A stretch of 64,000 bases of DNA from Balanoglossus misakiensis (GCA_040954595.2 JBECUI020000033.1:134659-198658), one strand, 5' to 3'; shown: positions 14,344 to 64,000, counted from the first letter of the stretch. A program made the numbers and translations. The notes: generated by a model not told the origin, from the sequence alone.

Positions 14344-14373
14344 AAGAGGAGGGGGGGTCCCCCCCCCTCTTTT
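14344..14373 (-). terminator. Probable intrinsic terminator downstream of the FN3-like lipoprotein gene
   Basis: G/C-rich inverted repeat aagaggagggggggtccccccccctctttt. Confidence 0.6.
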
Positions 14374-14446
14374 CGGCCCTTCTTCCTTTTTTACACATTG
14401 ACAAAATATCTCTGTGGAAAGGTGACTCGTTAGACGATCTTTCCTC

Positions 14447-15805: not shown

Positions 15806-15933
15806 ATAAAACCTCCATTCATATAAATAACCCCTTAATTCTGTTTTGTCAATACTTTTTTGCAACTTGACAACTTCTCAACACAAAGCACTCAAGATAT
15901 ACTGTCAACAGCATATCTTCCCGACTCGAGACC

Positions 15934-15967
15934 AATTATCATAATAGTGTAATTATCATAATAGTGT
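15934..15967. promoter_or_regulatory. Perfect 17-bp tandem direct repeat (aattatcataatagtgt x2) upstream of the lipoprotein gene; candidate regulator site
   Basis: Read directly; ~130 bp upstream of ATG 15805. Confidence 0.45.
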
Positions 15968-16882: not shown

Positions 16883-17195
16883 TCATTTCCTTTTTTTGAA
16901 GAGCTTCGTGATTGTTTCCTTCATATTGATGACGCACTTGAAGATGATGACGTTGCGTGAGATGATGACGCACGTGAAGATTCCATTGGGCAGAATGAAC
17001 CAGGTAGAGTAACCACTCGATTGCGGATTGCCAAGTATATTATCTACCCCACCGTTCCAGCGTATTCCTAGGGATTTCTTCCCGCCCATTCCATTGCTGC
17101 CAGTGCCCAACTGCTTCCCTACCTCTACGAATGACTTTAAGGTCTTTTATTTTGTCCTTGGGGGAGCAGACTTCCTCAGGTTTTGTATAACACAT
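16883..17195 (-). pseudogene. Small conserved-hypothetical protein (SPKD..WALA.MEW..KKSLGIRWNG..GNPQS.G..TWFILP), frameshifted
   Basis: ATG 17195 after AAGGAG gives MCYTKPEEVCSPKDKIKDLKVI; indels near 17080-17120 connect it to the GIRWNG/GNPQS/TWFILP frame. Confidence 0.55.
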
Positions 17196-17841
17196 TGCAA
17201 TACTCCTTTGCGTTTAACAGTACGTGAATTGTTCACAGTATTAATAAGTGTACCATGTATATGTGCAGTCAAGGGATTAATGAAGATCTTTTCTGATTCG
17301 ACACATCCTCAGCGCTTTCTGTAATCTGGTAGAAAAAACAGGAGATTACCCTGAGCACAATACGAACCGTTACAGAAACACTGATCAGACAGGCCAAGGC
17401 CGACATCCATCCTGATCCCATGCTGTCCTTACTGATGATGATGTTGAAGTTCAGCGCACGCTCAGTGTCATTCAGTAGAGCCGAGAATCAGCAAAAACAA
17501 GTTTCGCCGCAGCCAAAGCCGTCTGATTGAAAAGGGCGAGGTCATTATGTCATTCGAGGAGTGTGCTTTTTTTGCGTCTCTATCATCTCGACTTTGAGTT
17601 GATCGTGCCTGTGGATCGTGAGATCGAGCTCCTCGAATTTCAAGAGTCGGTCTCCCGCTTTATCCAACACAACTCTGTTTTGACCATAAGTTAAGAATTG
17701 TTTTAATCGATTTCCTTGTAGAGAACGGTATCTGGAGGATTAACTTTCTGAAAGTTAATCTGTCTTTTCCTTTCGCTGCCCTTGGCTGCTTTTACAGGAG
17801 GGCTGTTTGTATAGATGGTTTTGGGTCGGGGGGGAGTGGTG

Positions 17842-18495
17842 TCACTCCCATTGGTATTGTGGGTGATAGGAGTCACCTCTACCAAGCATGTAAGACCATT
17901 TACAACAGATCAGTCTTAACTGGTAAAAAAGATTCTTCTGTTCGTTTGTCTCCCAAGAAAGAAACACTCGGGCTATGGGGAATTTTTTCCTGAGAGCTTT
18001 AAGAACGGTCAGAATTTCCATTAACTGAAGAATCAGATCTCGAAGGATGCGATAAGGCCCCACTCTTTGTTTAATCATTTTATGAACTTTCAAAACCAAT
18101 CCAACTGCTGCTGCACAATGCCTTTTGGCTAGTTCTTCCAACAGTACCCAGCCAATCTTGCAAAGTCGCAGTTTGAGAGTTCCTGGATTGGTTCCTAATT
18201 TCTGAGCCCATGTAGACAGGCTGATGTCCTTCTGGGCATAGGACAGGATGGAATCGTAGGGAATTTCTACCTTTTCATAATAGGAAACTAGAAAAGAGCT
18301 TGTAGAAAAAGATTTTTCACAAGAACAGCATAAGTAGTTCCAAACTATCCCATGTCTGTTGTTCTTTTTAGTTCCCCGGAATCTGAACCAATGGGGCCTC
18401 TGGGGACGAGCATGATTTACGCATTCCGAATAAGGACAGAATTCCGGCTCTGGTATTGCTTGTCTGCAATTTTTTTTTGCCTTGATACAAAACAT
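17842..18495 (-). CDS. IS1/IS1595-like transposase N-terminal region (Zn finger plus HTH) without a recognisable DDE domain
   Basis: CPYSECVNH...YLCCSCEKSFS Zn finger followed by HTH-like SLSTWAQKLGTNPGTLKLRL. Confidence 0.55.
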   Translation of the reverse strand: MFCIKAKKNCRQAIPEPEFCPYSECVNHARPQRPHWFRFRGTKKNNRHGIVWNYLCCSCEKSFSTSSFLVSYYEKVEIPYDSILSYAQKDISLSTWAQKLGTNPGTLKLRLCKIGWVLLEELAKRHCAAAVGLVLKVHKMIKQRVGPYRILRDLILQLMEILTVLKALRKKFPIARVFLSWETNEQKNLFYQLRLICCKWSYMLGRGDSYHPQYQWE

Positions 18496-19950
18496 AATAA
18501 GCTCCTAATTTTTAAATTTTATACAGAGGTACCTAGGGAAATAATTCAAATTCTGGCCAGGTTTCCGACTGGAGTTTGTTTAATTTGTATTTCCATAATG
18601 CTTAATGTGATGTCTTTGCTTGGGTTAAGGATTTATGGTCGATGCACCGAGGTTTGTTAGTTTACGGGAATGATCTGACTGCTGTCTTTTTCTAGTCTGA
18701 AGTGATTCTTATAAGAATACCTACAATAATACTTCAGAAAATATGCCTTAGTCCCGATAAGTAAAGGAAGGTAATTGCTGATAGGCAGTTCCTAGCTAAA
18801 CTTTGCCCGCAGGAAAAACGACGTCCCCAGTCCCCCCCCCCCGGGTATTTTTTTGTATCTAAAACTTCATGGACGGCTAGAACGAACAGCAGGGTATACA
18901 CTGTTTCAAGCTAGACACTCATTTCAGAAGCAGTCGGATAGTGCTTCTGAAATGAATCCAGAGAACTGTACAGGAAATAAATGGACTTTCATTCCAGTAC
19001 TACCACATTACTCAACATCTCCAGAAAATAAAGACCTTTAAGAGTCAATCTCGTGCTACGTACAATTTTGATTGCATCATGTAGGTGTTCACAACAATGT
19101 CTAGATGAGGGGATTAAATTTACAACAATTACACAAATCCAATCCTCTCTATTGAAATCTAACATTACCAAGATAGACTATTAGCTGAAAACATGGTCGG
19201 AGACTCTTTTCTTAGCTTTCCACCCGATGTATGGCCCCTCCTGGTACTTGCTTGCTGAGTTTAACCAGATTATCAGTGAACAGCTTGGAGTCACAGTAAT
19301 CAAAAACTTACCAAACTGCGAATTCCCAGAGGAGTATTTCCCCCAGGTTCCTGTCAGATTAAGGGAAAACGCAGTTAAAATAATCTACAATGAGCGAATT
19401 GCAACCGTTTATGCTGATAACGAGAGGTTATTTCAGCAGAACAGGAATAAAAAAACCAGACAATCACACTAGGGCCTAATCGCCTATGCCATCCTGCATA
19501 ACATTATTCACTCCTGGTCTACAGAACAATCCCTGAAATGGATGGAGAATATTGGAGAAGAGGTTAACTCCTTATTCCCTCTGACAAGTTAGCCTCATAG
19601 ATAACAGACATACAGATCCTGCGAGGGGGGCTTTCTGTCTCCCGTAAAGAAATACAAATCAGAAGATTTGTATTAGGACTGCAGGCGAGTTCTGAATTAT
19701 GGCCGTATCAGTTTCAGTGAGATAAAACTCTACCCTGAAGAAAAATACTTACAGGATACCTCGGAGAACTGCATGGAGAGTAATTGTGTTCTATAGACTG
19801 ACTTTATAGCGGAGATCTGCACATAGATTGTGAGGGTTCCCATTTTTTAAGCTTCTGCTTGTGTTTCCCCAGAATCTCTATCTGAATGCATTGGGATATA
19901 CAAACGAAGTAGAGAATTTTTTCAAGTAGGAGTCTTTATGTTCCATTCCT

Positions 19951-22479
19951 CTAGCAAGTAGGTAGGCTAAGTTTTATGAAAGAGGGTAGGGGAGAAGTTT
20001 CATGCCTGGTTGTGTCTTTTCTTTTCCACAATTCCCAGAGTAGTCCCAATCCCCAGCAGGCTCCCATTAAAAGGGGGAACCAATCTCCCCATCTTTGATA
20101 AAGAGTAGGGGGGGCTTCCGGGTCGGGAAGATGTACTTCTCCACTTATCCAGCCAGGTTCGTAGGGTGGGGGTGAGCCTGTTGGATGCGCCCTCCAGCAT
20201 CGGCGATAAGAGTCCATCCTGAACTGGTCGCCCTGACAAGGGGACGGCGGTTCTCGACGGTGCGGAACAGGGCATGAACAGCGTGCTGGTAGCCTTCCTG
20301 AGGAGTAACAGCCCAATAGTCGTTACTCAGATTGACAATCACTTGGGCTCCAGCAGTAACAAATCGGCGTACGTGGTTAGGGAAGACGTCCTCAAAACAG
20401 ATGGGGGTGGAAAAGCGAAATCCCGGCCCCTGGTAGACGGTATGTTCTGTTCCAGGAGTCCACTGGGTGGAGGCAAAGTTTTGCAAGAGAGCATCAATTT
20501 TGGGTAGAGTTTTTTTATAGGGGAAATTTTCGGTAAAGGGGACTAAAAGAATTTTGTAGTAGTAGAATCGGTCTTCTGGGCCTTCACGGCCTGGCATTAG
20601 AAGCATGGAGGCATTTTGTATCCTTTTTATATCTTCTTGATTTTCATCCTTTTCAAAAAAATGGTCCTGGGTACCAGTGACCAAAGCCACCTGCCAGGAT
20701 TCCTGCCAGGAAAAAAGTTTATTGACCAGTTTCCTTCGGTTCCTTTCTTCCATGGAGGGTTGAAGCCAGAATCTGATATCCGGAGGGAAGCCTCCCTCGG
20801 GCCAGGCGATTAGATCTTGGGGCCCCGATGCTAGGGCTTGGTCTGAGAGTCTGATAAGTTCATCAAGACTTTGCTGGTAATCGTGTTTCCTAGGATCAGT
20901 GTTTTGCTGAATAGCGGCGATACGTACCGTCGGGGAGTTTTGTTGATAGCGGTCCAACTTCTTCAGGGCCAGGCTCCCCTGAACCGAGATAAGGACCACA
21001 AGTCCTGCTGTTACGGTCGCAGGAATCCAGTTTCTGAGAGACTTTTGGGTTTTGGGGGTTCTTTTGAAGTATTTTTCTATCCCTACGGTCAATGCTCCTC
21101 CAGACAAGTGGCACATGAAGGTAACTCCCCAGACACCCGAGAAGGAGGCTAGTTGTATGAAAGGGGTAAAAGCATACTGGCTTACTCCCAAGGCTCCCCA
21201 GGGATAGGCAAGAAAACCTAGAGTTCGGGTCCATTCAAAAAAAGTCCACAAGGCTGCTGCCAGAATCCACCATCCAGACCCTCCCCGTGAAGGCTGATTA
21301 GCAGAAGAATAAGAAATGGGGCAAAAATAATCAGGTTTAAAATGGTGGTAAAAGGTAGGGACACGTAGTTAAAGGTTCCCTGCCAGTAGTTGATCAGAAG
21401 AATCTGCAATCCAGTAAAGGTAAAGGCATAGAAAATTCCTTTTCCCGGGTAACTGCGCGTAGGGCCAGATAGAGGGGGACCGTGGCGAACCAGGCTAGAG
21501 GGGCTAGGCCTTGGGACCGCAGAAAACTTGGGGGGGCCAGGGCATACAGTAATGCTGCCAGAGCAATCCAGCCCAGAGCGGGGGCTTCCAGGAGAATCTT
21601 CCTTTTCCCAACGAACCATTCTTTTTTAATCCGGTGGAAAACAGACCTTCCCCACCCATAGAGAGAGAGAAGCTGCAAAGGAAGAAAGCGCAGCATAGCG
21701 ATCTTCCTTTCGGTGCTGGTATCAGCAAGATCTAGCCCCCCGTTGGTCGCTACAAAAAGCTGGACGTAGGGTAAATCACCATTAATGGCATAAATAAAGG
21801 CAAAAAGGTGGAGTAGGGTTCCCACAGAGATAAGGACTTCCAATAAGAAGGATGGGAACTTTCCTTTCAACAGAAAGAGGGCCAGAAGAAGCTCTCCCCC
21901 CAGCCAAAGAAGGTAAAGGTAGTTAGCCAAGGTCATTCCCGCCGAGGATGCAGAAAGAATTTCGGGATAATCAAGAGCTTCTCCAAGTTTGTTTCTGCCT
22001 GCTAGGAAGTTCTCTAGGGTTCCCGTATCATCGCTCCAGCGGCTGCTAATCTCCCCCGATGCCAGGTCGAGAATGTTTAAGGAAACCCTGAATGTACCTT
22101 CCCAATTGCTGATTCTCCCGCGGATAATACTTTCCTGTCCTAATTCTCTACCCAATTCTAGGACTTCATCGGTGGAGAGAATAACGTTATTGAAGATATC
22201 TAGTCGGCTTTGGGTATCTATGTACCAGTTTTCTATGAATGAACGGGGGGAGAGTTTAAAAGCACGGCTGGAACTTATTTCCTGTTCAATTTTCTTTTCC
22301 AGGGCCCTTTTTTGGATTTCATCTAAGGAAGGGGCATAGATGGGCATTAAAACAATCGAAGGCTTGCGAATAAAAGTCCATGGTCCCCAAAAGCTGAGAA
22401 AAATCTCGACCACAACAAGTAGAACTACGAGACCTCCACCAATGTGATAAGTTCGGTGAAGTCTCTGCAAGCTTATCAT
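19951..22479 (-). CDS. lnt: Apolipoprotein N-acyltransferase with large N-terminal extension; three apparent frameshifts (~21420, ~21260, ~20165)
   Basis: Catalytic E-K-C motifs WPEG, YYKILLVPFTE, PICFEDVF, NLSND.W, RTVENRRPLVRA and TLYQRWGDWF; fragments 21394-22479, 21218-21619, 20145-21251 and 19951-20316 are collinear. Confidence 0.85.
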
Positions 22480-31925: not shown

Positions 31926-33148
31926 GGTAGTGTTTAAAAAATTGCGCAGATTCTAAAAAGGCATTGAAAAAAAATGTCCTCCAATGTTGAAATGGAATCG
32001 AATGCAAAACCATTCACACGGAGGACAAAATGAGGTCAGAGACCCCACGGGAAAGATCATACAGATAGATGAAGGTCTCCTACAGAGCAGCCAAATGGTT
32101 AAAGAAACCGTATGAGGAAACTTTGAATGCCATGCTCAATGCGGAGGCAGATCCTTTACTTCAGGCTGAAAAATACGAACCTACGGATGCACGAAAAGAT
32201 ACTCGTGCCGGACATTACACCAGGAAGTTGGATATCACTGCTTTCAAGAGTAGGGACAGGTCGCGACCTGTCCCTACTTCGGCTTCCATTTGAAACAGCA
32301 ATTATTGAGCGTTATAAACGCCGGGAAACATCCGTTGGCCTTAGTTGAAATGTATTTAGCTGGTGTTTCAGTGCGCCTAGTTAAAGATATTACCGAGGCG
32401 CCCTTTGGGGAAGCAAGGTAAAGCCCTGGGACAATGAGCAATTTGAACCAGGATCTCTTAGTAGAGAATCAATAAGCGCTCATGGGCTGGAGAAGTTGAG
32501 AAATGTGAGCATTTCTGGTAGCGATAGGCGTCTCAGAAAGCGGATATCGTAGTGTTTGCTGTTGAAGGTGAAAAGGAAGATAAAGCTGGATGGAGCAACT
32601 TTCTTGCACACTTGACAACCTAAGGGCTTAAGGATACTAAAGCTCTTCATAAGCGACAAATGCATCGGGTTGGCCTGAATCCATCGAAGAGTTTTTCCCT
32701 AAAGCACGATGGCAACGATGCGTTGTTCACTATTACCGGAATGTATTCTCAGTAGTTCCCCGTGAGAAGGTCCGTGAAGTTGCAGCAATGCTGAAGGCAA
32801 TTCATGCGCAAGAAGATCGTGATGCTGCTCTTGAGAAGGCTCAACTGATTGAAGCGAAACTCCGCAATATGAAACTTCCCCAGGCTTCTGACATGGTGAG
32901 AAACTATATCCACGTTCGCAGAACCCTGGTTCGAAGAACCCTGGTTCGCAGAACCAACTTGCAGAACATTCCCTCGATGGGAATTCGGCCCTTATGCTAT
33001 CAGCTGCCAGGCTCAGGCAGATCATGGGAACAAAATGGAGTACAGAAAAGTATTTGAATATGGACTTACTTAAAGCGATAAGGCAAGATGTACGTTAGGC
33101 TCTTTCAACATTGGAGATTTGAAAGAGCGCAACATTCTTGACACTACC
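31926..33148 (+). mobile_element. IS256-family element, degenerate (copy 1)
   Basis: Imperfect TIRs ggtagtgtttaaaaaattgcgc / gcgcaacattcttgacactacc; broken transposase peptides ETLNAML.AEAD, GHYTRKL, FETAIIERYKRRE, MLKAIHAQEDR, DGNSALML. Confidence 0.9.
32249..32278. repeat. Perfect 30-bp palindrome AGTAGGGACAGGTCGCGACCTGTCCCTACT (GTAG-type REP-like) inside the IS256 relic
   Basis: Self-complementary; carries the GTAG...CTAC ends typical of REP elements. Confidence 0.85.
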
Positions 33149-46146: not shown

Positions 46147-46647
46147 ATGCAAAATAAACTATTACCTAAGCAGGCGGACAATAACTACAGCTTTCACAAG
46201 GCCATTCTGTATATATTCGGGGCGATGACATTGCTTACCATAGGCAGAAGCTTGGCCCACATTTTTCTACCTGACGGTGGTGCCAACTCCATAGCCACCA
46301 TCATCAACTTCGACGGGAATCCTGACCCCGATACTGTCATCTATAATATTTTTGCCCTCTGGGGCCTGGCCCAGCTGGCTATGGGGGTAGTGTATGCGAT
46401 TGTACTTTTTCGCTATAAAAATCTGATTCCCCTGATGTGGGTTTTCATTCTGGTGGAGTACCTCCTGAGGGTATTCATAGGAAAGGCTCTTAAACCTATG
46501 GGCGAGGCCTATCTTCTCGGAACGGCTCCAGGTGAAGTGGGAAATTATATTTTTGTTCCTCTGGCTTTGATCATGATTATTTGGTCACGTGCAGGAAAAC
46601 CCAGGGTACCCCGATCCCCCCCGAGCCCCCATGCGTCAAACTCTTAG
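46147..46647 (+). CDS. Hypothetical 4-TM membrane protein
   Basis: AAGGAAG RBS; RSLAHIFLPDGGA.SIA, WGLAQL, YKNLIP, TAPG; C-terminus runs into the repeat array. Confidence 0.8.
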   Translation: MQNKLLPKQADNNYSFHKAILYIFGAMTLLTIGRSLAHIFLPDGGANSIATIINFDGNPDPDTVIYNIFALWGLAQLAMGVVYAIVLFRYKNLIPLMWVFILVEYLLRVFIGKALKPMGEAYLLGTAPGEVGNYIFVPLALIMIIWSRAGKPRVPRSPPSPHASNS

Positions 46648-47655
46648 ATGAACAGAAGAATCTCCTTTTTCAAGGGGATATCACAGGCATAGGTAGAATA
46701 GCCGCCCAGGGCACCCCGAGCCCCTATGCGTCAAACCCTTAGATGAACAGAAGAATCTCCTTTTTCAAGTAAATATCACAGGCAAAGGTAGCATCCCCCC
46801 CGAGCCCCCCCCAGGCCCCCATGCGTCAAACCCTTAAATGAACAGAAGAATCTCCATATTCAAGTAAATATCACAGGCAAAGATAGCATCCCCCCCGACC
46901 CCCCCCCCAGGCCCCCACGCGTCAAACCCTTAAATGAACAGAAGAATCTCCATATTCAAGTAAATATCACAGGCAAAGGTAGCATCCCCCCCAAGCCCCC
47001 CCCGACCCCCCACGCGTCAAACCCTTAAATGAACAGAAGAATCTCCATATTCAAGTAAATATCACAGGCAAAGGTAGCATCCCCCCCAAGCCCCCCCCGA
47101 GCCCCCATGCGTCAAACCCTTAAATGAACAGAAGAATCTCCATATTCAAGTAAATATCACAGGTAAAGGTAGCATCCCCCCCGGCCCCCCCCAGGCCCCC
47201 ATGCGTCAAACCCTTAGATGAACAGAAGAATCTCCATATTCAAGTAAATATCACAGGCAAAGATAGAATCCCCCCCGAGCCCCCCCCCGATCCCCCACGC
47301 GTCAAACCCTTAAATGAACAGAAGAATCTCCATATTCAAGTAAATATCACAGGCAAAGATAGAATCCCCCCCGAGCCCCCCCCCGATCCCCCACGCGTCA
47401 AACCCTTAAATGAACAGAAGAATCTCCATATTCAAGTAAATATCACAGGCAAAGGTAGCATCCCCCCCGCCCCCCCAGGCCCCCATGCGTCAAACCCTTA
47501 AATGAACAGAAGAATCTCCATATTCAAGTAAATATCACAGGCAAAGGTAGCATCCCCCCCGAGCCCCCCCCAGGCCCCCATGCGTCAAACCCTTAAATGA
47601 ACAGAAGAATCTCCTTTTTCAAGTAAATATCACAGGCAAAGATATCCCCCCCCCC
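46605..47655. repeat. Tandem array of 11 units of ~95 bp (conserved ~65-bp core plus three poly-C tracts)
   Basis: Unit starts (a[t/c]gcgtcaaac) at 46631, 46726, 46821, 46917, 47012, 47107, 47201, 47297, 47393, 47485 and 47580. Confidence 0.97.
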
Positions 47656-50716: not shown

Positions 50717-53416
50717 ATGAATAGAGTGAATGTGATTGTATTAGCTGTTTTGTTACTTATCACTTTTGGATGCTCAAGCCCCTCCCCACAGCTTTCTGTT
50801 GATTATGGAGATATTACCTATCGTGATGAAGGAACAAACATTACCATAACTGGCCTTACGGTTCAGGGAAGCAGCAAAACCACCTTAGAAATTCCCTCTA
50901 GGATAGAGGATAAACCAGTAACGGCCATAGGGAAAATGGCGTTTAAAAACGCCAGCATGACTAGCGTAACCATTCCTGACAGTGTGAATACCATTGAGGC
51001 GGAGGCCTTTAATTCCGCTCAATCCCTGACCGATGTGCGCATTGGGAAAGAACTAACCTCCATAGGCAATCAGGCCTTTGCGGATACGGCCCTGAACAGC
51101 CTAAGCATCCTAGCCCTCCAGGCCCCCAGCATCTCCTCGGATTTCCAAGAAAGCTTTCCCAGTCTGGAAGCCACTTTGCACTACCCTATAGAGGGAAGGG
51201 GTTATGAACTTTCTCCCTGGAAAGATTTTCGGCATACAAAGCCTATTGTCGACCCTAACATCATAGAAAAAACGGAGCTAGGATATAGGAGTCTCCACCT
51301 TACTCTCAGGGCTCCCGTTGGCATTACCATTACCGTAGAAGCCCACAGCACGGAGAATTTCCAAGATAATCCTGCCATAGCCAAGGCAGCCTCCAACCCG
51401 GAGATTGTAGGTTCTCAGGAGCTAAGCCTTACTGATCTGAGCAACGGAGTCCCCTATTACCTTCACTTTCAGGCAGAAAACTCTAGAGATAAGAGCGAAT
51501 GGATAGAGATTGCTAACAATCCCTACACTCCCTCTCTGCAGCATGCCTTTCAGGTAGAAGGAGTCCAAATCGGCCTTGGGACACTTACCCTCAGTTTCAA
51601 GGCTTTCTCTGGAGTTGACATTACTATTGCCACTCATACTCAACAAGACTTCTCTGATACAGGAATAAGCTCAACCATAACAGCTTTAGGAGGCTTTGAA
51701 GAAAGCAACATAAGCAACCTGATAGGAGGCATGGAATACTACCTCCGTGTCCAGGTGGAGACTCTTCAGGGAGAAAAAAGCGAGTGGATAGAGCTTGACT
51801 TCAATCCCTATATTCCCCACGTGCTGTATATTATTGATGTCATACCCCGCTCAGGTCGGGTAAGCAGCATAGTGGGAGTGCGTGAGGGTGTCGAGGCAAA
51901 AATCCAGATTTCCGAAGATGAGAATTTCAGCCCCATCTTCAAAGAAGCTTCCTTAATAGGCACCAGCAGCCCTCAGACGGTGGAGATTAACGGACTCAGC
52001 GATGGGACCTCTTACTACCTTCGCCTCCAGCTGGAGGACGACAGTGCTGCAGACCGTTATTCTACTCCCTTTATACCCACCGCTGACGGTATGCAGCATA
52101 TTCACCGCCTGAGCGAGTTGGCCAAAATCGGAAAAGATGAGAACTATCCTGCCCAATGGCACTACGAATTGATGTCGGACCTTGACTTTGCCGATGCCGA
52201 CAATAACGGAAATCCGAACGATCTCTACGACAGTGACAACAATAGGGAAAACGGGAATTGGAATCCTCTGACCATAGGGAACTACGACTCCAACGACACC
52301 TACCTCGATGGTGGTTTCAGCGGTAGTTTTAACGGAGGAGCTCACAGCATTACTGGCATGACCATTCTGAGTCCTGGGAGCGGTGGAGTCGCTTTTTTCG
52401 GAACTTTGGCGGATGGGGGAGAAATCAAGGACCTCGGTTTAGAAGAAGTGTCTGTCACGGGTGGGCTGTATGTAGGCAGCTTGGTTGGACACAATTACAA
52501 GGGTACGATAAGTCGCAGCCATGCTGTTGGAACTATCATAGGGCAGAACAGGGTAGGTGGACTGGTTGGCAGGAATGACGGTAGCCTAGAGGGCAGTCAT
52601 GCCAACGTGACCCTCTCGGGGAATGGAGACATGATAGGCGGTTTAGTCGGAACGGATTCCGGTGACATAAGCAATAGTTATGCCACGGGAAATGTCACAA
52701 GTAATAATTCCTATATAGGTGGTTTGGTAGGATACAGTGATGCCACCATAAGCAATAGTTATGCCACCGGAGATGTCTTTGGGGAAGGCAATAACGTAGG
52801 TGGTCTGGCTGGGTATTTGAGAAGAGGCATAATCAGCAGCAGCTATGCCACTGGTGCTGTTCTTGGCTTGAATGAGTCTACAGGTGGCCTGATTGGAGAA
52901 ATTAGTGCAGGAGGTATTGTAGAGTACTGCTACGCAACTGGTGGCATCAGAGGACGGCTGTATACAGGTGGCTTAATTGGGTACAACAGCGGTGATATAA
53001 TCAACAGCTATGCCATAGGAGAAGTTACGGGGGATCAGCACACAGGCGGCTTGGTTGGAGGGAATTACAAAGTTATAACGAACAGCTTCGCTTCTGGAAA
53101 TATCATAGGAATGAGCAACCTAGGCGGCTTGGTCGGAACGGTATCGGGAAACCCTGCTGTTATCAGGAATAGCTACCGTTACACAAACCAGATTATCAAC
53201 TTTTCTGAAGTCGAAGGCATCCTTCCCAATACCTTTGGAAGTACGGTCACCCTTTCCGAGTTAAAAACTCTGCGTTGGTATACGAACAACCTGAGTTGGG
53301 GTCACAATTGGCGCATTGACGGTTTGGTAAATGGCTCCCTCCCCTTCTATCCCCACATAATCCTGCCAGTAAATGGCCAAGAAGTACCCAATCAACCCCA
53401 AAATCCCATTCCTTAA
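50717..53416 (+). CDS. Surface lipoprotein paralog 1: BspA-type LRR, FN3-like modules, GLUG-repeat domain (intact)
   Basis: Lipobox ITFGC; IP....VTAIG..AF and VTIPDSV..I...AF (LRR_5); L..G..YY.R modules; repeated SYATG.V.G...VGGLVG. Confidence 0.9.
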   Translation: MNRVNVIVLAVLLLITFGCSSPSPQLSVDYGDITYRDEGTNITITGLTVQGSSKTTLEIPSRIEDKPVTAIGKMAFKNASMTSVTIPDSVNTIEAEAFNSAQSLTDVRIGKELTSIGNQAFADTALNSLSILALQAPSISSDFQESFPSLEATLHYPIEGRGYELSPWKDFRHTKPIVDPNIIEKTELGYRSLHLTLRAPVGITITVEAHSTENFQDNPAIAKAASNPEIVGSQELSLTDLSNGVPYYLHFQAENSRDKSEWIEIANNPYTPSLQHAFQVEGVQIGLGTLTLSFKAFSGVDITIATHTQQDFSDTGISSTITALGGFEESNISNLIGGMEYYLRVQVETLQGEKSEWIELDFNPYIPHVLYIIDVIPRSGRVSSIVGVREGVEAKIQISEDENFSPIFKEASLIGTSSPQTVEINGLSDGTSYYLRLQLEDDSAADRYSTPFIPTADGMQHIHRLSELAKIGKDENYPAQWHYELMSDLDFADADNNGNPNDLYDSDNNRENGNWNPLTIGNYDSNDTYLDGGFSGSFNGGAHSITGMTILSPGSGGVAFFGTLADGGEIKDLGLEEVSVTGGLYVGSLVGHNYKGTISRSHAVGTIIGQNRVGGLVGRNDGSLEGSHANVTLSGNGDMIGGLVGTDSGDISNSYATGNVTSNNSYIGGLVGYSDATISNSYATGDVFGEGNNVGGLAGYLRRGIISSSYATGAVLGLNESTGGLIGEISAGGIVEYCYATGGIRGRLYTGGLIGYNSGDIINSYAIGEVTGDQHTGGLVGGNYKVITNSFASGNIIGMSNLGGLVGTVSGNPAVIRNSYRYTNQIINFSEVEGILPNTFGSTVTLSELKTLRWYTNNLSWGHNWRIDGLVNGSLPFYPHIILPVNGQEVPNQPQNPIP

Positions 53417-54050
53417 AGGCAGATTTCTCATTGCCCCTTGGGAAAGCAGATCCACACCAGCATTCGAAGGGTGTTTTCGGCATACATTGCCTAGTTGGAC
53501 CAAGAGAAATTTCCTTATAGAAAGAATACTTAGCTTACCGGGGATAATTCTGACCTGGTGGTAGGTTTCCATAAAATGCGGTAAAAGTCGGTGGAAATAA
53601 ACATGCCACCAAGTGTCTTCGGTAGGTGTACCATACCCTGCAAGAAGACAGCACGGTGGCAAGGAACAGCATGACACTGATTGAGCTCGCTTAGAAGCAT
53701 GGGAAAACTTCATGAGTAAATGGGTGGGCATCTTCAACAACTCATGGAACCCGAAGTCAAGCAGCAGGTCGGCGCAGAACACCACGAGTGCGACCAAGGC
53801 GGAGAACAACACAGCGAAACGGATACTGAGAGCGGGCTCTGGAAACCAGAGCCAGGACTGTGAACCAGAGGATTCCCAATCTCCGACCAGGAATTTTCTT
53901 ATAGTCAGAAGAAATTTCTTAAACTAACGCAACATTTTTAACGTAAAAAGTAAAACAACTAATTAAAATAATCTTTTTTATCTGTTATCGTAATGAAATT
54001 AATTATTCTAGGTAGTATAGTATAATAATAAATAAATGGAGGATTTTCTA

Positions 54051-57000
54051 ATGTCACGTATTCACACAGTAGTTATTGTTGCGGCTGCACTATTCTTCTT
54101 AGCTGGATGTCCCAATCCATCGACTCCATTTGTACATGAGTCAGGAGACATCGCGTACAAAATTGACGGTTCCTCGATAACCATAGTCGGACTTGCCAAT
54201 CAAGACAGCACAGAAATAGTAATTCCCCCTATGATTCAGGATAAAACCGTAACAATCATTGGTAGAGCAGCATTTAAGGCGTCTAATCTGGTCAAAGTGA
54301 CCATTCCAAACAGTGTAACAACCATTGAAGATGAGGCCTTTCACCTTGCCGCTTCTCTGAAAGAAGTGCGTATAGGAACAGGCATTACTTCCATAGGCAA
54401 TCAAGCTTTTGCCGGTACGGCACTGAATCGGTTGGCCATTCTGGCAACCCAGCCCCCTGAACTTTCGGGAAGCAACCCTGCTGCTGTATTCCCCAGCTCC
54501 CTCATAGAAACCACTTTGGAGTACCCTATCGCAGGAACAAACTTCGGCAGCGCTCCCTGGAGTGATTTTGGCAGCAAAATCACCATCTTGGATTCTGATG
54601 CTATAGAAACCGTTCGAGCAGGGGATGGAAGCATCGCCATCACTCTCAAGGGCATAGCCGGAGTTATCTACACCGCTTCGGCCCATGAGCAGGCGGACTT
54701 CTCCGATACAGGAATAGAAGCCACATCAGAGGCGGCCACGGAAGCTTCCTTGATTTTGATCGTTGGGAATCTGGATAATACAAAACCCTACCATATTCGG
54801 GTACAAGGGAAAAACGTCGACGGAGATAGCAGCAATTGGATAGCAGCTGCCGAGAACCCCTACACTCTTAGCTCCGAGGCCACCCCCGCCATAACAGGAG
54901 TTCAAACCGGTCCGGATTCTCTTACGGTCACGGTCAATGCCTTGGCAGGTATAGACATTACCGTAGAGGCCCATAGCAATGCGGACTTCACTGACCCCAT
55001 ATCAACCATAACTGAAACAGCCACGGGGAGCGACCAGGAACTCACCCTCACCGGCCTGACCGGCGGCACCGATTACTACATTCGGGCCCGAGGAGTGAAC
55101 ACCCAAGGGAACCCAAGCGAATGGGTTGCTGCCAGTGCCAACCCCTACACTCCCAACGTGAATCCTGCCCTTACCCTTGGCGATGATGTCCAGGCTGGCG
55201 GGGGAACGCTCACCGTTACGGCCAATGCCTTGGCAGGTATAGTCATTACCCTAGAGGCCCATAGCAATGTGGACTTCACTGACCTCATAACAACGGTAAC
55301 CCAAGCAGCCACGGGGATTGACCAAGAACTCACCCTCACCGGCCTGACCGGCGGCACCGATTACTACATTCGGGCCCAGGGGGCTAACACCCAAGGGAAC
55401 CTAAGCGAATGGGTTGCTGCCAGTGCCAACCCCTACACTCCCAATGCGGATCCCACTGTTAGCGATTTGAGGGTTGAGAGCTTTTTGGAGACTATTGTCG
55501 CTAAGTTCCGTGCCGTGAGCGGTATTACGGTTACAGTTTATCTCCACACCAGTGCTGACTTCTCTGATCCTGGAACACAGAAGGAGTCCACAGCCACTGG
55601 TGGTATTGACGAAGTAAGTTTTGACAGCTTGTCATCCGGCACTTCCTACTATATTCGGGCCCAGGGAGCCAATGACCAGATGGACCAAAGTGATTGGTTG
55701 GAGGCCAGCGCTAACCCCTATATCCCCTCCACCCTCTACCTCCGTGACGCCATACCTGGGAATGGTATGATAACAGCTAAAGTTGAGTCATCTCTTAGTG
55801 CAGCAGGGAAAGTAGAAGTCTCCACCACATTGGATTTCACCGACATTGCCAAAGTCGTTGCCTTTACAGGAACCGGAAGCGTGCAGGATGTCGTAGTTGA
55901 TACCCTGACTAATGGAACCTCCTATTATCTGCGTGCCAGTCTGGATAGCAGCACTGTGAAACAAGACTACACCACGCCCCTTATTCCCACTGATGGTACC
56001 ACACGCTACATACATCGTTTGAGAGAAATGATCCTTTCGACACCGACGATACTGGAGTTAATGCAACTGGGCTCCCTTACCCCTGGGAGCTTCGCAGGTG
56101 GTTCTGGGAATATCACAGACGGCGTTTTCAGGGCAGCTTCAGTGGAACTTCCGACAGTGGCCCTACACCATTACGGGCATGATTATAAATCTTCCCGAAG
56201 TTTCTCGAGTCGGTTTCTTCTCAGCTCTGAATAATGGAAATATCAGTGATATCGGATTAGTTGAAGCAATAGTCACAGGGAATCTAGTATGTAGGTGCTT
56301 TGATTGGAGACAGTCAAGGCAGCATAAGTGGCAGCTATGCCACGGGGTCTGTGACTGGTCATGGTGGTGAAGTCGGTGGACTAGTCGGAAAACACATGGG
56401 CGGTGATATAGTGGATAGCTATGCCACGGGGTCTGTTACTGGTCGTAGTAGTAGTAGTGAAGTCGGTGGACTAGTCGGAAGTCATCGCGGCGCGAGCAGT
56501 AGTATAAAGAATAGTTATGCCACGGGGTCTGTTACTGGTTATAGTGAAGTTGGTGGACTAGTCGGAGAGTTCAGTGCTTACGAGATAGTGAACAGCTACG
56601 CTACCGGTGATGTTTCGGCTTTGGCTCGCGTGAAGTCGTATGCAGGTGTTTGGTTGGATACTTTTGGATACGGATAAATTCAAACTCACAGAAGATTCAC
56701 CATAGCTATGCTACCGGGGCTGTTACGGGTATAGATATAGTTGGTGGTTTGATTGGTTGTTCGGAATTGGAGAGCAGCGGGGTGATTGCTCAAGATCTAA
56801 ACGTAGTCAATTGTTATGCCACCGGTAACGTCAATGCTGAAAGCTCTGTAGGGGGTTTGATAGGGAACAACGATACAACCTAAATGATAGTTATGCTACC
56901 GGGAGAGTCGTAGGCAGTTCTAAGGTCGGTGGTTAGTTGGAGAGAATTCTGGTATCATAAAGAATAGTTTTGCTGTAGGGGCAGTTAGTGTAGTAAAGAA

Positions 57001-57338
57001 GTTGGTGGTCTGATCGGGTCGTCTTTTCAGCGTACTATTCCATTCGTGATCACGAATAGTTACCGTTACGCTGACCAGGTAGTTGACATTACCGATCTTA
57101 CTGGCACAGGGGAAACTCCCAATATGGAAGGTATTGAGGTCAGCCTATCCAGTTAAAAGCTCAAGCTGGTACACGGGAACTGCTCCCGACGGCTTAGGCT
57201 GGTCCATCGATGGTAGCGGAGGGGGACTACCGTTACATTGGAACATTGCACTCTGATAAATGAAACTACTATCCCCATGTATTCCAAAGCGGAACTACGG
57301 ACGAAGTTCCGAACCAGCCCAACATAACCCTTCCCTAA
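54051..57338 (+). pseudogene. Surface lipoprotein paralog 2 (LRR, FN3-like, GLUG); intact to ~56020, then a ~100-bp deletion and frameshifts
   Basis: GGAGGA RBS, lipobox FLAGC; GLUG fragments 56300-56677 and 56650-56883; ends EVPNQPNITLP-stop at 57338, like the paralog 1 end EVPNQPQNPIP. Confidence 0.85.
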
Positions 57339-57340
57339 TT

Positions 57341-57372
57341 CTTTGTATCCCTGCAAAAGCGGGGATACAAAG
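57341..57372 (+). terminator. Hairpin directly after the paralog 2 stop (second hairpin ~57394-57420)
   Basis: ctttgtatccctgc-aaaa-gcggggatacaaag inverted repeat. Confidence 0.65.
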
Positions 57373-57556
57373 TAGCCATTTCATTATCCAAGAAACCGGG
57401 AAGACTTAGGTCTCCCGGTTGGGTTTTGAGGGTGTGAGCAGGACCGTCCAGCTTGCTTTCCTGAGATAGATTTAAATAAAAGGTTTCGACTTCACTCTTC
57501 TCCTGTGAACAGAAGAAGTTTCTTATCTGCCAGGCTTTTTCCTATACCCGGAAGTC

Positions 57557-58985
57557 GGTAGTGTTTAAAAAAATTGCGCAGATTCTAAAAAGGCAAAAAA
57601 TGTCCTCCAAAGTTGAAATGGAATCGAATGTAAAACCATGCACACGGAGGCCAGAATGAGGTCAGAAAAAGACCCAACGGGAAAGATCATACAGATCGAT
57701 GAAGGTCTCCTACAGAGCAGCCAAATGCTTAAAGAAACCGTATGAAGAAACCTTGAATGCCATGCTCAATGCGAGGCAGATCCTTTACTTCAGGCTGAAA
57801 AATACGAAGCTACGGATGCACAAAAAGATACTCGTGCCGGACATTACACCAGGAAGTTGGATATCACTGCTTTCAAGAGTAGGGACAGGTCGCGACCTGT
57901 CCCTACGTCGGCTTCCATTTGAAACAGCAATTATTGAGCGTTATAAACGCCGGGAAACATCCGTAGAAAGCCTTAGTTGAAATGTATTTAGCCGGTGTTT
58001 CAGTGCGCCGAGTTAAAGATATTACCGAGGCGCCCTTTGGGAAGCAAGGTAAAGCCCTGGGACAATGAGCAATGTGAACCAAGATCTCTTAGTAGGGACA
58101 GGTCGCGACCTGTCCCTACGTCGGCTTCCATTTGAAACAGCAATTATTGAGCGTTATAAACGCCGGGAAACATCCGTTGAAGAAGCCTTAGTTGAAATGT
58201 ATTTAGCTGGTGTTTCAGTGCGCCGAGTTAAAGATATTACCGAGGCGCCCTTTGGGGAAGCAAGGTAAAACCCTGGGACAATGAGCAATGTGAACCAGGA
58301 TCTCTTAGTAGGGACAGGTCGCGACCTGTCCCTACTTCGGCTTCCATTTGAAACAGCAATTATTGAGCGTTATAAACGCCGGGAAACATCCGTTGAAGAA
58401 GCCTTAGTTGAAATGTATTTAGCTGGTGTTTCAGTGCGCCGAGTTAAAGATATTACCGAGGCGCCCTTTGGGGAAGCAAGTAAAGCCCTGGGACAATGAG
58501 CAATTTGAACCAGGATCTCTTAGTAGGGACAGGTCGCGACCTGTCCTACTTCGGCTTCCATTCGAAACAGCAATTATTGAGCGTTATAAACGCCGGGAAA
58601 CATCCGTTGAAGAAGCCTTAGTTGAAATGTATTTAGCCGGTGTTCAGTGCGCCGAGTTAAAGATATTACCGAGGCACCCTTTGGGGAAGCAAGGTAAAGC
58701 CCTGGGACAATGAGCAATTTGAACCAGGACTCTTAGTAGGGACAGGTCGCGACCTGTCCCTACTTCGGCTTCCATTTGAAACAGCAATTATTGAGCGTTA
58801 TAAACGCCGGGAAACATCCGTTGAAGAAGCCTTAGTTGAAATGTATTTAGCTGGTGTTTCAGTGCGCCGAGTTAAAGATATTACCGAGGCGCCCTTTGGG
58901 GAAGCAAGGATAAAGCCTGGACAATGAGGCAATTTGAACCAGGATCTCTTAGTAGGGACAGGTCGCGACCTGTCCCTACTTCGGC
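57557..58985 (+). mobile_element. IS256-family relic (copy 2): left end plus transposase 5' part, with internal tandem amplification
   Basis: Left TIR ggtagtgtttaaaaaaattgcgc; near identity to 31926-32465; no right end of its own. Confidence 0.9.
57878..58980. repeat. Five tandem ~215-bp units delimited by six copies of the GTAG palindrome
   Basis: Palindrome starts at 57878, 58091, 58307, 58522, 58735 and 58951 (28-bp core perfect in five, one C missing at 58522); intervening sequence is the same IS256 transposase fragment. Confidence 0.96.
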
Positions 58986-59067
58986 AGCGACATAGTTGGA
59001 TACGGAAATGCTGTAATTCGTTTTCTACAATTTCCTTATTGTATACTAGTTTGCGAAGTGTTTAATT

Positions 59068-59635
59068 GGTAGTGTTTAAAAAATTGCGCAGATTCTAAAA
59101 AGGCAAGGATACTAAAGCTCTTCATAAGCGACAAATGCATCGGGTTGGCTTGAATCCATCGAAGAGTTTTTCCCCAAAGCACGATGGCAACGATGCGTTG
59201 TTCACTATTACAGGAATGTATTCTCAGGTGGTTCCCCGTGAGAAGGTCCGTGAAGTTGCAGCAATGCTGAGAAGGCAATTCATGGCCAAGAAGATCGTGA
59301 TGCTGCTCTTGAGAAGGCTCAACTGATTGAAGCGAAACTCCGCAATATGAAACTTCCCAAGGCTGCTGACATGGTGAGAAACTATATCCACGTTCGAAGA
59401 ACCCTGGTTCGCAGAACCCTGGTTCGAAGAACCCTGGTTCGAAGAACCATAATAGCAGAACATTTCCCCGGTGGGGGATTCGGCCCTTATGCTATCAGCT
59501 GCCGGCACATCATGGGAACAAAATGGATTACAGAAAAGCATTTGAATATGGACTTACTTAAAGCGGTGGGCAAGATGTACGTTAGGCACTTTCAACATTG
59601 GAGATTTGAAAGTGCGCAAAATTCTTGACACTACC
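59068..59635 (+). mobile_element. Internally deleted IS256 derivative (copy 3, MITE-like) with both TIRs
   Basis: Left TIR at 59068 joined after ~37 bp to sequence matching 32630 onward; right TIR gcgcaaaattcttgacactacc ends at 59635. Confidence 0.88.
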
Positions 59636-62600
59636 AGAATTTTCTTATAGTCAGAAGAAATTTCTTAAACTAACGCAACAATTTTAACGTAAAAAGTAAA
59701 ACAACTAATTAAAATAATCTTTTTTATCTGTTATCGTAATGAAATTAATTATTCTAGGTAGTATAGTAATAAATAAATGGAGGATTTTCTAATGTCACGT
59801 ATTCACACAGTAGTTATTGTTGCGGCTGCACTATTCTTCTTAGCTGGATGTCCCAATCCATCGACTCCATTTGTACATGAGTCAGGGAGACATCGCGTAC
59901 AAAATTGACGGTTCCTCGATAACCATAGTCGGACTTGCCAATCAAGACAGCACAGAAATAGTAATTCCCCCTATGATTCAGGATAAAACCGTAACAATCA
60001 TTGGTAGAGCAGCATTTAAGGCGTCTAATCTGGTCAAAGTGACATTTCCAACAGTGTAACACCATTGAAGATGAGGCCTTTCACCTTGCCGCTTCTCTGA
60101 AAGAAGTGCGTATAGGAACAGCATTACTTCCAATAGCAATCAAGCTTTTGCCGGTACGGCACTGAATCGGTTGGCCATTCTGGCAACCCAGCCCCTGAAC
60201 TTTCGGGAAGCAACCCTGCTGCTGTATTCCCCAGCTCCCTCATAGAACCACTTTGGAGTACCCTATCGCAGGAACAAACTTCGGCCAGCGCTCCCTGGAG
60301 TGATTTTGGCAGCAAAATCACCATCTTGGATTCTGATGATATAGAAACCGTTCGAGCAGGGATGGAAGCAATCGCCATCACTCTCAAGGCATAGCCGGAG
60401 TTATCTACACCGCTCGGCATGAGCAGCGACTTCTCCGTACAGAATAGAAGCCACATCAGAGGCGGACAGGAAGCTTCCTTGATTTTGATCGTTGGGAATC
60501 TGGATAATGCAAAATCCTACCATATTCGGGTACAAGGGAAAAACGTCGACGGAGATAGCAGCAATTGGATAGCAGCTGCCGAGAACCCCACACTCTTAGC
60601 TCCGAGGCCACCCCCGCCATAACAGGAGTTCAAACCGGTCCGGATTCTCTTACGGTCACGGTCAATGCCTTGGCAGGTATAGACATTACCGTAGAGGCCC
60701 ATAGCAATGCGGACTTCACTGACCCCATATCAACCATAACCGAAACAGCCACGGGGAGCGACCAGGAACTCACCCTCACCGGCCTGACCGGCGGCACCGA
60801 TTACTACATTCGGGCCCGAGAGTGAACACCCAAGGGAACCCAAGCGAATGGGTTGCTGCTAGTGCCAACCCCTACACTCCCAACGTGAATCCTGCCCTTA
60901 CCCTTGGCGATGATGTCCAGGCTGGCGGGGAACGCTCACCGTTACGGCCAATGCCTTGGCAGGTATAGTTCATTACCCTAGAGGCCCATAGCAATGTGGA
61001 CTTCACTGACCTCATAACAACGGTAACCCAAGCAGCCACGGGGAGTGACCAGGAACTCACCCTCACCGCCTGACCGGCGGCACCGATTACTACATTCGGG
61101 CCCAGGGGGCTAACACCCAAGGGAACCTAAGCGAATGGGTTGCTGCCAGTGCCAACCCCTACACTCCCAACGTGAATCCTGCCCTTACCCTTGCGGCGTC
61201 CAGGCTGGCCGTGGGAACGCTCACGGTTACGTCAATGCCTTGGCAGATATAGACATTACCGTAGAGGCCCATAGCAATGCGGACTTCACTGACCCCATAA
61301 CAACGGTAACCGAAACAGCCACGGGGAGTGACCAGGAACTCACCCTCACCGGCCTGACCGCGGCACCGATTACTACATTCGGGCCCAGGGGGCCAACACC
61401 CAAGGGAACCAAAGCGAATGGGTTGCTGCTAGCGCCAATCCCTACATGACCAACAAGGATCCTGCCCTTACCCTGGGCGGCGTCCAGGCTGGCGTGGGAA
61501 CGCTCACGGTTACGGTCAATGCCTTGGCAGATATAGACATTACCGTAGAGGCCCATAGCAATGTGGACTTCACTGACCCCATATCAACCATAACCGAAAC
61601 AGCCACGGGAGTGACAGGAACTCACCCTCACCGGCCTGACCGGCGGCACCGATTACTACATTCGGGCCCAGGGGGCTAACACCCAAGGGAACCTAAGCGA
61701 ATGGGTTGCTGCCAGTGCCAACCCCTACACTCCCAACGTGAATCCTGCCCTTACCCTTGGCGGCGTCCAGGCTGGCGTGGGAACGCTCACGGTTACGGTC
61801 AATGCCTTGGCAGATATAGACATTACCGTAGAGGCCCATAGCAATGCGGACTTCACTGACCTCATATCAACCGTAACCGAAACAGCCACGGGGAGTGACC
61901 AGGAACTTACCCTCACCGGTCTGACCAGCGGCACCGCATATCACATTCGGGCCCAAGGAGTGAACACCCAAGGGAACCAAGCAGAATGGGTTGCTGCTAG
62001 CGCCAATCCCTACATGACCAACAAGGATCCTAGCCTTACCCTTGGCGGCGTCCAGGCTGGCGGGGGAACGCTCACGGTTACGGTCAATGCCTTGGCAGAT
62101 ATAGACATTACCCTAGAGGCCCATAGCAATGTGGACTTCACTGACCTCATAACAACGGTAACCCAAGCAGCCACGGGGAGTGACCAGGAACTCACCCTTA
62201 CCGGCCTGACCGGCGGCACCGATTACTACATTCGGGCCCAGGGGCTAACACCCAAGGGAACCTAAGCGAATGGGTTGCTGCCAGTGCCAACCCCTACACT
62301 CCCAATGCGGATCCCACTGTTATCGATTTGAGGGCTGAGAGCTTTTTGGAGACTATTGTCGCTAAGTTCCGTGCCGTGAGCGGTATTACGGTTACAGTTT
62401 ATCTCCACACCAGTGCTGACTTCTCTGATACTGGAACACAGAAGGAGTTCACAGCCACTGGTGATATTGACGAAGTAAGTTTTGACAGCTTGACATCCGG
62501 CACTTCCTACTATATTCGGGCCCAGGGAGCCAATGACCAGATGGACCAAAGTGATTGGTTGGAGGCCAGCGCTAACCCCTATATCCCCTCCACCCTCTAC

Positions 62601-64000
62601 CTCCGTGACGCCATACCTGGGAATGGTATGATAACAGCTAAAGTTGAGTCATCTCTTAGTGCAGCAGGGAAAGTAGAAGTCTCCACCACATTGGATTTCA
62701 CCGACATTGCCAAAGCCGTTGCCTTTACAGGAACCGGAAGCGTGCAGGATGTCGTAGTTGATACCCTGACTAATGGAACCTCCTATTATCTGCGTGCCAG
62801 TCTGGATAGCAGCACTGTGGAAAAGTCTACACCACGCCCCTTATTCCCACTGATGGTACCACACGCTACCTACATCGTTTGAGCGAGCTGGCCAAATTGG
62901 TGTGGATGAGATTAACTATCCTGCTGACGGGACTTATGCACTCAAAGCCAACCTGGACTTTTCCGATGCCAACAACGACGGTACAGCAAATGATCCTTTC
63001 GACACCGACGATACTGAAGTTAATGGCAACTGGGCTCCCCTTACCCCTGGGAACTTCGATGCGGCTGGGAATCTCCTAGACGGCGGTTTTCAGGGCAGCT
63101 TCAGTGGAACTTCCGACAGTGGGCCCCTACACCATTGCGGGCATGATTATAAATCTTCCCGAAACGACTCGAGTCGGTTTATTTGCATTACTGCATAATG
63201 GATCTATCAGTGATATCGGATTACTTGAAGTAATGGTCACGGGGTATCAGTCTGTAGGTGCTTTGCTTGGAGAAAGTCAAGCAACATAAGTGGCAGCTAT
63301 GCCACGGGGTCTGTTACTGGTCATGGTGATGAAGTCGGTGGACTAGTCGGAAATCACACGGGCGGTAATATAATGGATAGCTATGCCACGGGGTCTGTTA
63401 CTGGTCATGGTGAAGTCGGTGGACTAGTCGGAAGGAATCGCAGCACGAGCAGTAGTATAAAGGATAGTTATGCCACGGGAACTGTTGCTGGTTATAGTGA
63501 AGTTGGTGGACTAGTCGGAAAGTTCAGTGCTAACGAGATAGTGAACAGCTACGCTACCGGTGATATTTCGGCTTTGGCTTCCGTGAAGTCGTATGTAGGT
63601 GGTTTGGTTGGATACTTTCAGATACATACAAACTCACAGAAGATTCACCATAGCTATGCTACCGGGGCTGTTACGGGTATAGATATAGTTGGTGGTTTGA
63701 TTGGTGGTTCGGAGTTGGGGCGCACGATGAGTGCTCAAGATGGAGTAAGCGTAGTCAATTGTTATGCCACCGGTAACGTCAATGGTCAAAGCTATGTAGG
63801 GGGTTTGATGGGGAGCAACGAATACAGCCTAATTGGTAGTTATGCTACCGGGAGAGTCGTAGGCAGTTCTAATGTCGGTGGTTTAGTTGGAGAGAATTCT
63901 GGTATCATAAGGAATAGTTTTGCTGTAGGGGCAGTTAGTGGTAATGAAGATGTTGGTGGTCTGATCGGGTCGTCTCTTCAGTATCTTATTCCATTAGAGA
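59636..64000 (+). repeat. Segmental duplicate of 53890-57050 (upstream region plus paralog 2)
   Basis: gaattttcttatagtcagaagaaatttc... identical from 53891 and 59637; near identity through the LRR and FN3 regions. Confidence 0.93.
59792..64000 (+). pseudogene. Surface lipoprotein paralog 3 (LRR, expanded FN3-like stalk, GLUG); many 1-bp indels; 3' truncated by window edge
   Basis: Same start MSRIHTVVIVAAALFFLAGC as paralog 2; module marker gaggcccatagcaatg at 60694, 60981, 61264, 61548, 61831 and 62116; GLUG repeats from ~63290. Confidence 0.85.

What the first reader, a model, noticed from the sequence alone, without database searches (positions are those of the whole stretch)
56180..64000. 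Almost purely non-synonymous, adenine-skewed divergence confined to the GLUG domain of the duplicated pair
Seen (manual alignment of 56340-56645 with 63300-63600): about 17 amino-acid-changing codons against 2 synonymous, plus an indel (RSSSS vs HG). Changes cluster after the GGLVG motifs (KHMGGDIV vs NHTGGNIM; SHRGAS vs RNRSTS; EFSAY vs KFSAN), while the upstream ~2 kb is nearly substitution-free. About 14 of 20 substituted sites have A in one copy (11 in paralog 3), mostly at codon position 1. Inference: strong diversifying selection on the exposed face of the solenoid, or a targeted mutagenesis/conversion mechanism. The A skew recalls DGRs, but the region is long and no reverse transcriptase is in the window.
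Basis: partly seen in the sequence, partly recalled or inferred. Interest (0 to 1): 0.7.

Follow-up and report, generated by a model that had tools for sequence, protein, structure and literature searches.

The report
Fast-diverging tip of duplicated spirochaete lipoprotein
A spirochaete carries two recently duplicated genes for a predicted surface lipoprotein whose stalks are about 99% identical but whose predicted beta-helix tips differ at 67 amino acids against 5 silent changes, likely because natural selection, not an adenine-targeting mutator, is reshaping what the tip binds or how it is recognised.

Summary
The core observation holds and is stronger than reported. Over 319 aligned codons of the C-terminal head, the copies differ at 67 non-synonymous and 5 synonymous codons: dN/dS 2.5-6.1 by four methods, ML 5.4, p 4.5e-6. 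Independent sequencing contigs carry both versions. Changes spare the repeat scaffold (2 of 86 codons) and hit the other positions (45 of 146) of a confidently predicted beta-helix.

The DGR hint is not supported. Adenines are split evenly (27 vs 26), and their share is close to that of GLUG paralogs in other genomes (46/60 vs 370/562, p 0.058). A pure adenine-template model predicts 2.5 non-adenine differences; 25 are seen. No reverse-transcriptase motif or template repeat lies in the window, but the genome could not be searched.

Best reading: diversifying selection on a duplicated adhesin-like lipoprotein of a likely animal-associated spirochaete, a known kind (vls cassettes, PFam54). The ligand is unknown.

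The parts
50717..53416 (+). Copy 1, a distant paralog: intact 899-aa predicted lipoprotein (lipobox-like signal, BspA-type LRR, fn3-like stalk, GLUG beta-helix head); 41% identical to copy 3 in the aligned head
54036..57338 (+). Copy 2: same architecture, about 2.7 stalk repeats. Broken in the window by single-base indels and a gap of about 100 nt at 56024. Two of the breaks are absent from contigs that otherwise match copy 2 exactly, so the gene is likely intact
56170..57050 (+). Hypervariable beta-helix head of copy 2 (62 non-synonymous vs 5 synonymous of 279 codons; in-frame indels of 9, 6, 3 and 3 nt)
57650..59630 (+). Degenerate IS256/Mutator-family transposase remnant between the copies, with a 216-nt unit repeated 5.2 times (57878-58985)
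59777..64000 (+). Copy 3: near-identical 5' part, about 5.8 stalk repeats of 283 nt (60652-62305), cut by the window end
63130..64000 (+). Hypervariable beta-helix head of copy 3; 63283-63999 modelled at pLDDT 94
53886..57553 (+). Extent of the duplicated block in copy 2, non-coding flanks included. The 3' limit is inferred from a 30-kb contig that matches 57048-57553 and then departs

Best explanation
A spirochaete gene for a predicted surface lipoprotein was recently duplicated in tandem, and diversifying selection has since likely fixed many single-base amino-acid changes in its predicted beta-helix tip, which would alter what the tip binds or how it is recognised. Shown: the duplication, the near-identical stalks and flanks, the excess of replacement over silent changes, and the sparing of the SYATG and VGGLVG scaffold. 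Predicted: a right-handed beta-helix like the N-terminal domain of M26 IgA1 proteases. Inferred: surface display on an fn3-like stalk, a role in adhesion or recognition, a host ligand, host receptor or phage as the selecting partner, and a part for the IS256 remnant in the duplication. The adenine richness is likely a by-product of swaps among polar residues (N, S, D, K, E, T) whose codons are A/G-rich at positions 1-2.
For: 67 vs 5 codons; NG86 3.8, LWL85 2.5, YN00 6.1, ML 5.2-5.4, LRT p 4.5e-6; a two-class fit puts 37% of codons at dN/dS about 17. Neutral simulation expects 20-24 silent changes among 81. dN rises from 0.013 to 0.11 (p 4e-21) while dS barely moves (0.010 to 0.029, p 0.06-0.07). 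Only 2 of 58 codons changed at positions 1-2 also changed at position 3, so the variable codons are young. Scaffold 2 of 86 vs other 45 of 146. Variable sites are family-variable columns (2.9 vs 1.9 bits, p 2e-6). 34 of 36 listed contig differences on copy 2 equal the copy-3 letter, and three contigs match copy 2 with no other letter. Depth is 13.6-15 on shared parts vs 5.7-7.2 on unique flanks. Of 28 repeat pairs listed in related loci, 27 have dN/dS 0.14-0.70; this gene's own stalk repeats pool to 0.56. Model pLDDT 94; Z 23.4 (rmsd 2.1, 207 aligned) to 7uvk and 21.8 (rmsd 2.8, 199 aligned) to 3n6z.
Against: Only two sequences are compared, so sites cannot be polarised or tested one by one. 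No ligand, expression or localisation data. A small adenine excess remains (46/60 vs 66% baseline, p 0.058; silent adenines varied at 2 of 27 vs 1 of 111 other four-fold sites). The last stalk unit shows 10 non-synonymous vs 0 synonymous changes (p 0.06), half unsupported by contigs. Control pairs are mostly older, from other taxa and not independent. The run differs from the window at about 1% of shared positions, so it is a close strain or the window has errors.
Confidence: 0.75

Rival explanations
1. One head was imported by homologous recombination from another strain's allele, or the flanks were homogenised by gene conversion. The differences then built up between strains under selection, not between the two copies in place.
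For: dS in the head (0.029) is somewhat above upstream (0.010). Sharp onset of divergence near 56170.
Against: The dS difference is not significant (p 0.06-0.07). Third positions of variable codons are conserved (2 of 58). This rival still needs positive selection.
Confidence: 0.13
2. A vls/tprK-like system: the head is rewritten by segmental gene conversion from silent cassettes elsewhere in the genome.
For: Same signature as vls cassettes: dN above dS in loops and in-frame triplet-repeat indels (PMC3828179; the AGT run at 56444). An unchecked note reports another variable lipoprotein bank on a spirochaete piece of this assembly.
Against: No third copy in the window. Among 22 contigs laid at 80% likeness, the 83 listed changes match the copy-2 to copy-3 spectrum kind by kind, leaving no clear room for a third allele class. 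Only 4 of 72 differing codons have a 13-nt match elsewhere in the window: three in scaffold repeats and one a truncated match at the window end.
Confidence: 0.05
3. Both heads are targets of a remote diversity-generating retroelement that mutates adenines of a template repeat.
For: A in one copy at 56 of 81 substitutions; 65 of 81 at codon positions 1-2; 17 of 30 AAY codons vary. Remote targets exist for the Treponema DGR (PMC5758913).
Against: 25 differences lack A, against 2.5 expected (p 5e-17); the published maximum of non-A differences per target is 11. 209 of 265 adenine sites and 25 of 27 silent ones are unchanged. Only 36 of 72 variable codons fit an AAY template, below the 65% background of pyrimidine-ending codons. 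The zone is about 1 kb vs about 45-50 codons in the Bordetella VR. No YxDD motif in six frames of the window.
Confidence: 0.03
4. Artefact or neutral decay: long-read errors, strain alleles mis-joined in tandem, or a pseudogene drifting.
For: The window has many single-base indels in both copies and a repeat-rich IS remnant between them. No contig spans both copies.
Against: Contigs of run X1 carry both letter sets; shared parts have about twice the depth of flanks. Errors or drift would give about 22 silent changes, not 5-7, and would not spare the scaffold.
Confidence: 0.04

Closest known systems
Borrelia burgdorferi vls cassettes / VlsE (Graves et al. 2013, PMC3828179; passages read)
   Same: Spirochaete surface lipoprotein; intragenomic copies with dN well above dS at variable positions, conserved scaffold, in-frame triplet indels; explained there by selection on random mutation.
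   Different: Here two apparently full genes with their own upstream regions, no silent cassette array or expression site found, and a beta-helix fold instead of helices and loops.
Borrelia PFam54 tandem paralog array (PMC11109050; abstract only)
   Same: Tandem paralogs in a spirochaete with signatures of diversifying selection tied to host or vector.
   Different: Unrelated fold; selection there is measured between clades, here between two copies about 1-3% apart at silent sites.
Diversity-generating retroelements (Wu et al. 2018, PMC5758913; passages read)
   Same: Replacement-rich changes at codon positions 1-2 in a C-terminal domain of a surface protein.
   Different: No RT or TR in the window, too many non-adenine differences, most adenines untouched, zone several times longer than the model VR, fold not among the CLec/Ig targets in the passages read.
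GLUG beta-helix: N-terminal domain of M26 IgA1 proteases (7uvk, 7jgj; PMC7695701, passages read) and Bacteroides BACOVA_03286 (3n6z)
   Same: Same fold: Z 19.8-23.4, rmsd 2.1-2.8 over 199-207 residues; Pfam PF07581.
   Different: No protease domain here by Pfam. In IgA1 protease the helix gates the active site; here it is the terminal domain on a stalk. GLUG function is given as unknown, possibly adhesion, in PMC9723798 (one passage read).

Membership tests
DGR target | Differences confined to template adenines | tested here: not met
   25 non-A differences vs 2.5 expected for two descendants of one template; 25 of 27 silent adenines unchanged
DGR target | Template repeat about 90% identical to the variable region | tested here: inconclusive
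   None in the window on either strand; genome not held
DGR target | DGR reverse transcriptase (and Avd) in the genome | tested here: inconclusive
   No YxDD motif in six frames of the window; no RT among 28 frames scanned; rest of genome unavailable
DGR target | Short variable region ending at an IMH | tested here: not met
   Variation is spread evenly over about 1 kb, 6-13 replacements per 40 codons; IMH itself cannot be tested without a TR
vls-type cassette conversion system | dN above dS at variable positions with conserved scaffold | tested here: met
vls-type cassette conversion system | Array of silent partial cassettes plus an expression site | tested here: inconclusive
   Not in the window; no third allele class among 22 contigs of run X1; contigs drop rare variants and some records are filtered out
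GLUG-repeat beta-helix protein (PF07581) | GLUG motif repeats above the Pfam cut-off | tested here: met
   E 5e-19 to 3e-34 in all three copies
GLUG-repeat beta-helix protein (PF07581) | Parallel beta-helix fold | tested here: met
   Predicted, pLDDT 94; Z 23.4, rmsd 2.1, 207 aligned to 7uvk
M26 IgA1 protease | Zinc metalloprotease middle and C-terminal domains | tested here: not met
   No such Pfam family in intact copy 1; copies 1 and 2 end about 90-100 codons after the helix
Surface adhesin | Surface exposure and binding to a ligand | not testable with these tools
   Lipobox-like signal read from the sequence (motif recalled); no assay

The most novel reading that the evidence does not exclude
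A remote templated hypermutator, DGR-like but with a template of about 1 kb and relaxed adenine specificity, or a cassette bank, rewrites GLUG beta-helix tips. It would give an invertebrate-associated spirochaete programmed surface variation on a fold never reported as such a target.
Probability: 0.07. Interest if true: 0.85.

Novelty: new member of a known kind. Interest (0 to 1): 0.45.

Why it matters
GLUG repeats are widespread in surface proteins and their function is unknown. A natural pair that differs almost only at non-scaffold positions marks the candidate binding surface and gives two ready variants for a ligand test. A domain-wide dN/dS of 3-6 between copies only 1-3% apart at silent sites points to a strong recent arms race. 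If the host is an invertebrate, as unchecked notes on this assembly suggest, antibodies cannot be the driver, which leaves innate receptors, host glycans or phage.

Tried and rejected
The whole genome is not held, so the RT and TR search was limited to the window.

No RNA holder was listed. Run X3 laid nothing.

No close relatives or further alleles were found. Both metagenome scans were empty; the stalk search among longer proteins was empty; the full-length search returned mostly LRR-only hits; the cap search gave 28-49% identity; the genome scan gave 27-50%.

An RT was found in 1 of 5 genomes behind related loci; these are unrelated or distant organisms, so this is uninformative.

Foldseek gave no match at E 0.001. 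The ESM Atlas returned only GLUG clusters. The cap and C-terminal tail of copy 1 modelled poorly, pLDDT below 50.

A suspected IS remnant at 53700-53860 was not confirmed by tblastx or Pfam.

Paper searches with no hit: GLUG + positive selection + adhesin (25), GLUG + DGR (27), GLUG + BspA (38), PF07581 (44). 'GLUG motif' gave 2 papers (28). Searches listed nothing on this topic. Subscription journals and bioRxiv supplements were not searched.

Scan notes near the place, by words and by sequence were empty.

Rejected: old divergence with scaffold-only conversion, because third positions of variable codons are conserved.

Full report
Setting. The window is bacterial. Its Lgt is about 52% identical to those of named Spirochaetales, with an unnamed best hit at 61%. 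No whole genome is held. Three paralogous genes lie in tandem at the right end: copy 1 (50717-53416, intact, 899 aa), copy 2 (54036-57338) and copy 3 (59777 to beyond 64000). Each has a lipobox-like signal (read from the sequence; motif recalled). Pfam finds a BspA-type LRR in copies 1 and 2 (copy 3's matching DNA is near-identical), and fn3-like stalk units and GLUG repeats in all three. Copies 2 and 3 are separated by a degenerate IS256/Mutator remnant. The sequence has many single-base indels, as in a noisy long-read assembly.

Observation. I aligned the copies and kept only gap-free codons. The whole head (56026-57050 vs 62990-64000) has 67 and 5 in 319 codons (p 7e-5) plus in-frame indels of 9, 6, 3 and 3 nt. 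dN/dS is 3.8 (NG86), 2.5 (LWL85), 6.1 (YN00) and 5.2-5.4 (ML; LRT against 1, p 4.5e-6). A two-class fit gives 37% of codons at about 17. Random placement of 81 changes gives 20-24 silent ones. Upstream there are 18 and 3 in 641 codons (dN 0.013, dS 0.010), so it is about 99% identical but not free of changes. Replacement density jumps near 56170 and stays at 6-13 per 40 codons to the window end.

Are the differences real? One run (X1) holds 78% of the sampled words; it may be the source sample or a close strain. Laid on copy 2, 34 of the 36 listed differences within the aligned range equal the copy-3 letter, and the other two lie beside indels (40 of 83 rows were shown). Three contigs match copy 2 with no other letter, and two of them lack a window frameshift. 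The tally of all 83 changes by kind nearly equals the spectrum between the copies. Shared parts have depth 13.6-15 and unique flanks 5.7-7.2, which fits two copies per genome. Against: no contig spans both copies. The only contig over 56025-56114 carries the copy-3 form, so copy 2's gap at 56024 and its letters up to about 56160 are unconfirmed; leaving that part out gives 62 vs 5 and dN/dS 2.3-5.7. The run also differs from both window copies at about 1% of shared positions.

Where the changes fall. The copy-3 head models as a beta-helix (pLDDT 94). It matches the N-terminal helix of M26 IgA1 proteases and Bacteroides 3n6z (Z 19.8-23.4). A model of copy 1 extends the helix about 100 residues upstream of the canonical repeats, where the variable zone starts. 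Scaffold motifs differ at 2 of 86 codons, the rest at 45 of 146. The residue after GGLVG differs in 5 of 8 repeats; other clusters are the following loop, the flanks of the xIx strand and the loop before VGG. These columns are also variable across the family (p 2e-6).

The adenine skew. A is in one copy at 56 of 81 substitutions. Within non-synonymous codons the split is even, 27 vs 26. Against mutation-only nulls a modest excess remains (53 of 76; p 0.01-0.06 on variable codons). Against ten GLUG paralog pairs chosen it is 46 of 60 vs 370 of 562 (p 0.058); this gene's stalk repeats give 24 of 52. A template model with two descendants predicts 2.5 differences without A; 25 are seen. Silent adenines vary at 2 of 27 sites, other four-fold sites at 1 of 111, and adenines at positions 1-2 at 45 of 202. 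Half of the variable codons fit an AAY template, fewer than background. There is no YxDD motif and no third copy in the window. Wu et al. (PMC5758913, passages) report remote targets for the Treponema DGR, so the window alone cannot exclude one. They give at most 11 non-A differences per target and about 45-50 codons for the model VR.

Mechanism. Most likely a block of about 3.7 kb was duplicated recently; the stalk then changed length by repeat gain or loss, and selection fixed single-base replacements and short loop indels in the tip. dS is only slightly raised in the head (p 0.06-0.07), and only 2 of 58 codons changed at positions 1-2 also changed at position 3. This argues against old divergence masked by conversion, though import of one head from another strain remains possible. 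This is not how GLUG paralogs usually behave: 27 of 28 repeat pairs listed in related loci (450 nt or more, 78% identity or more; mostly older and not independent) have dN/dS 0.14-0.70, and one has 1.41, not significant. The selecting partner is unknown. Unchecked notes say this assembly holds animal DNA and another spirochaete piece with a lipoprotein bank. I treat host association as a lead only.

Comparison and verdict. The signature matches vls cassettes (PMC3828179, passages) and PFam54 paralogs (PMC11109050, abstract), without a cassette system shown. The fold is that of GLUG proteins, whose function is described as unknown and possibly adhesive (PMC9723798, one passage). Searches found no report of diversifying selection or DGR targeting in a GLUG domain. 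It is a real, unusually strong case of a known process on a domain where I found none described: new member of a known kind, interest 0.45.

Noticed in passing
window 57878-58985: A 216-nt unit repeated 5.2 times inside the IS256 remnant. Each unit joins a transposase fragment to a perfect palindrome beginning GTAG, which looks REP-like (recalled). A single-unit version lies at about 32050-33050. Depth in run X1 is 140-410 vs about 7 for unique DNA, so the element is high-copy.
   Followed up: partly
window 46609-47655: Eleven tandem 95-nt units with a constant AT-rich part and a variable poly-C part. No Rfam match; related short copies form an inverted pair at 6461 and 22778.
   Followed up: no
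window 60652-62305 vs 54858-55720: Stalk length differs between the copies: about 5.8 vs 2.7 fn3-like units of 283-288 nt.
   Followed up: partly
window 56024: Copy 2 lacks about 100 nt present in copy 3. The only contig there carries the long form, so this is an assembly error or a strain difference.
   Followed up: partly
window 13900-20100: About 6 kb with one ORF of 150 aa or more and no Pfam hit among the 11 frames scanned there.
   Followed up: partly
L001, L003, L021, L028, L032, L038: Other genomes (Ca. Porisulfidus and others) carry 4-7 GLUG helix modules within about 20 kb, diverging under purifying selection; L033 has one pair at dN/dS 1.41, not significant.
   Followed up: partly
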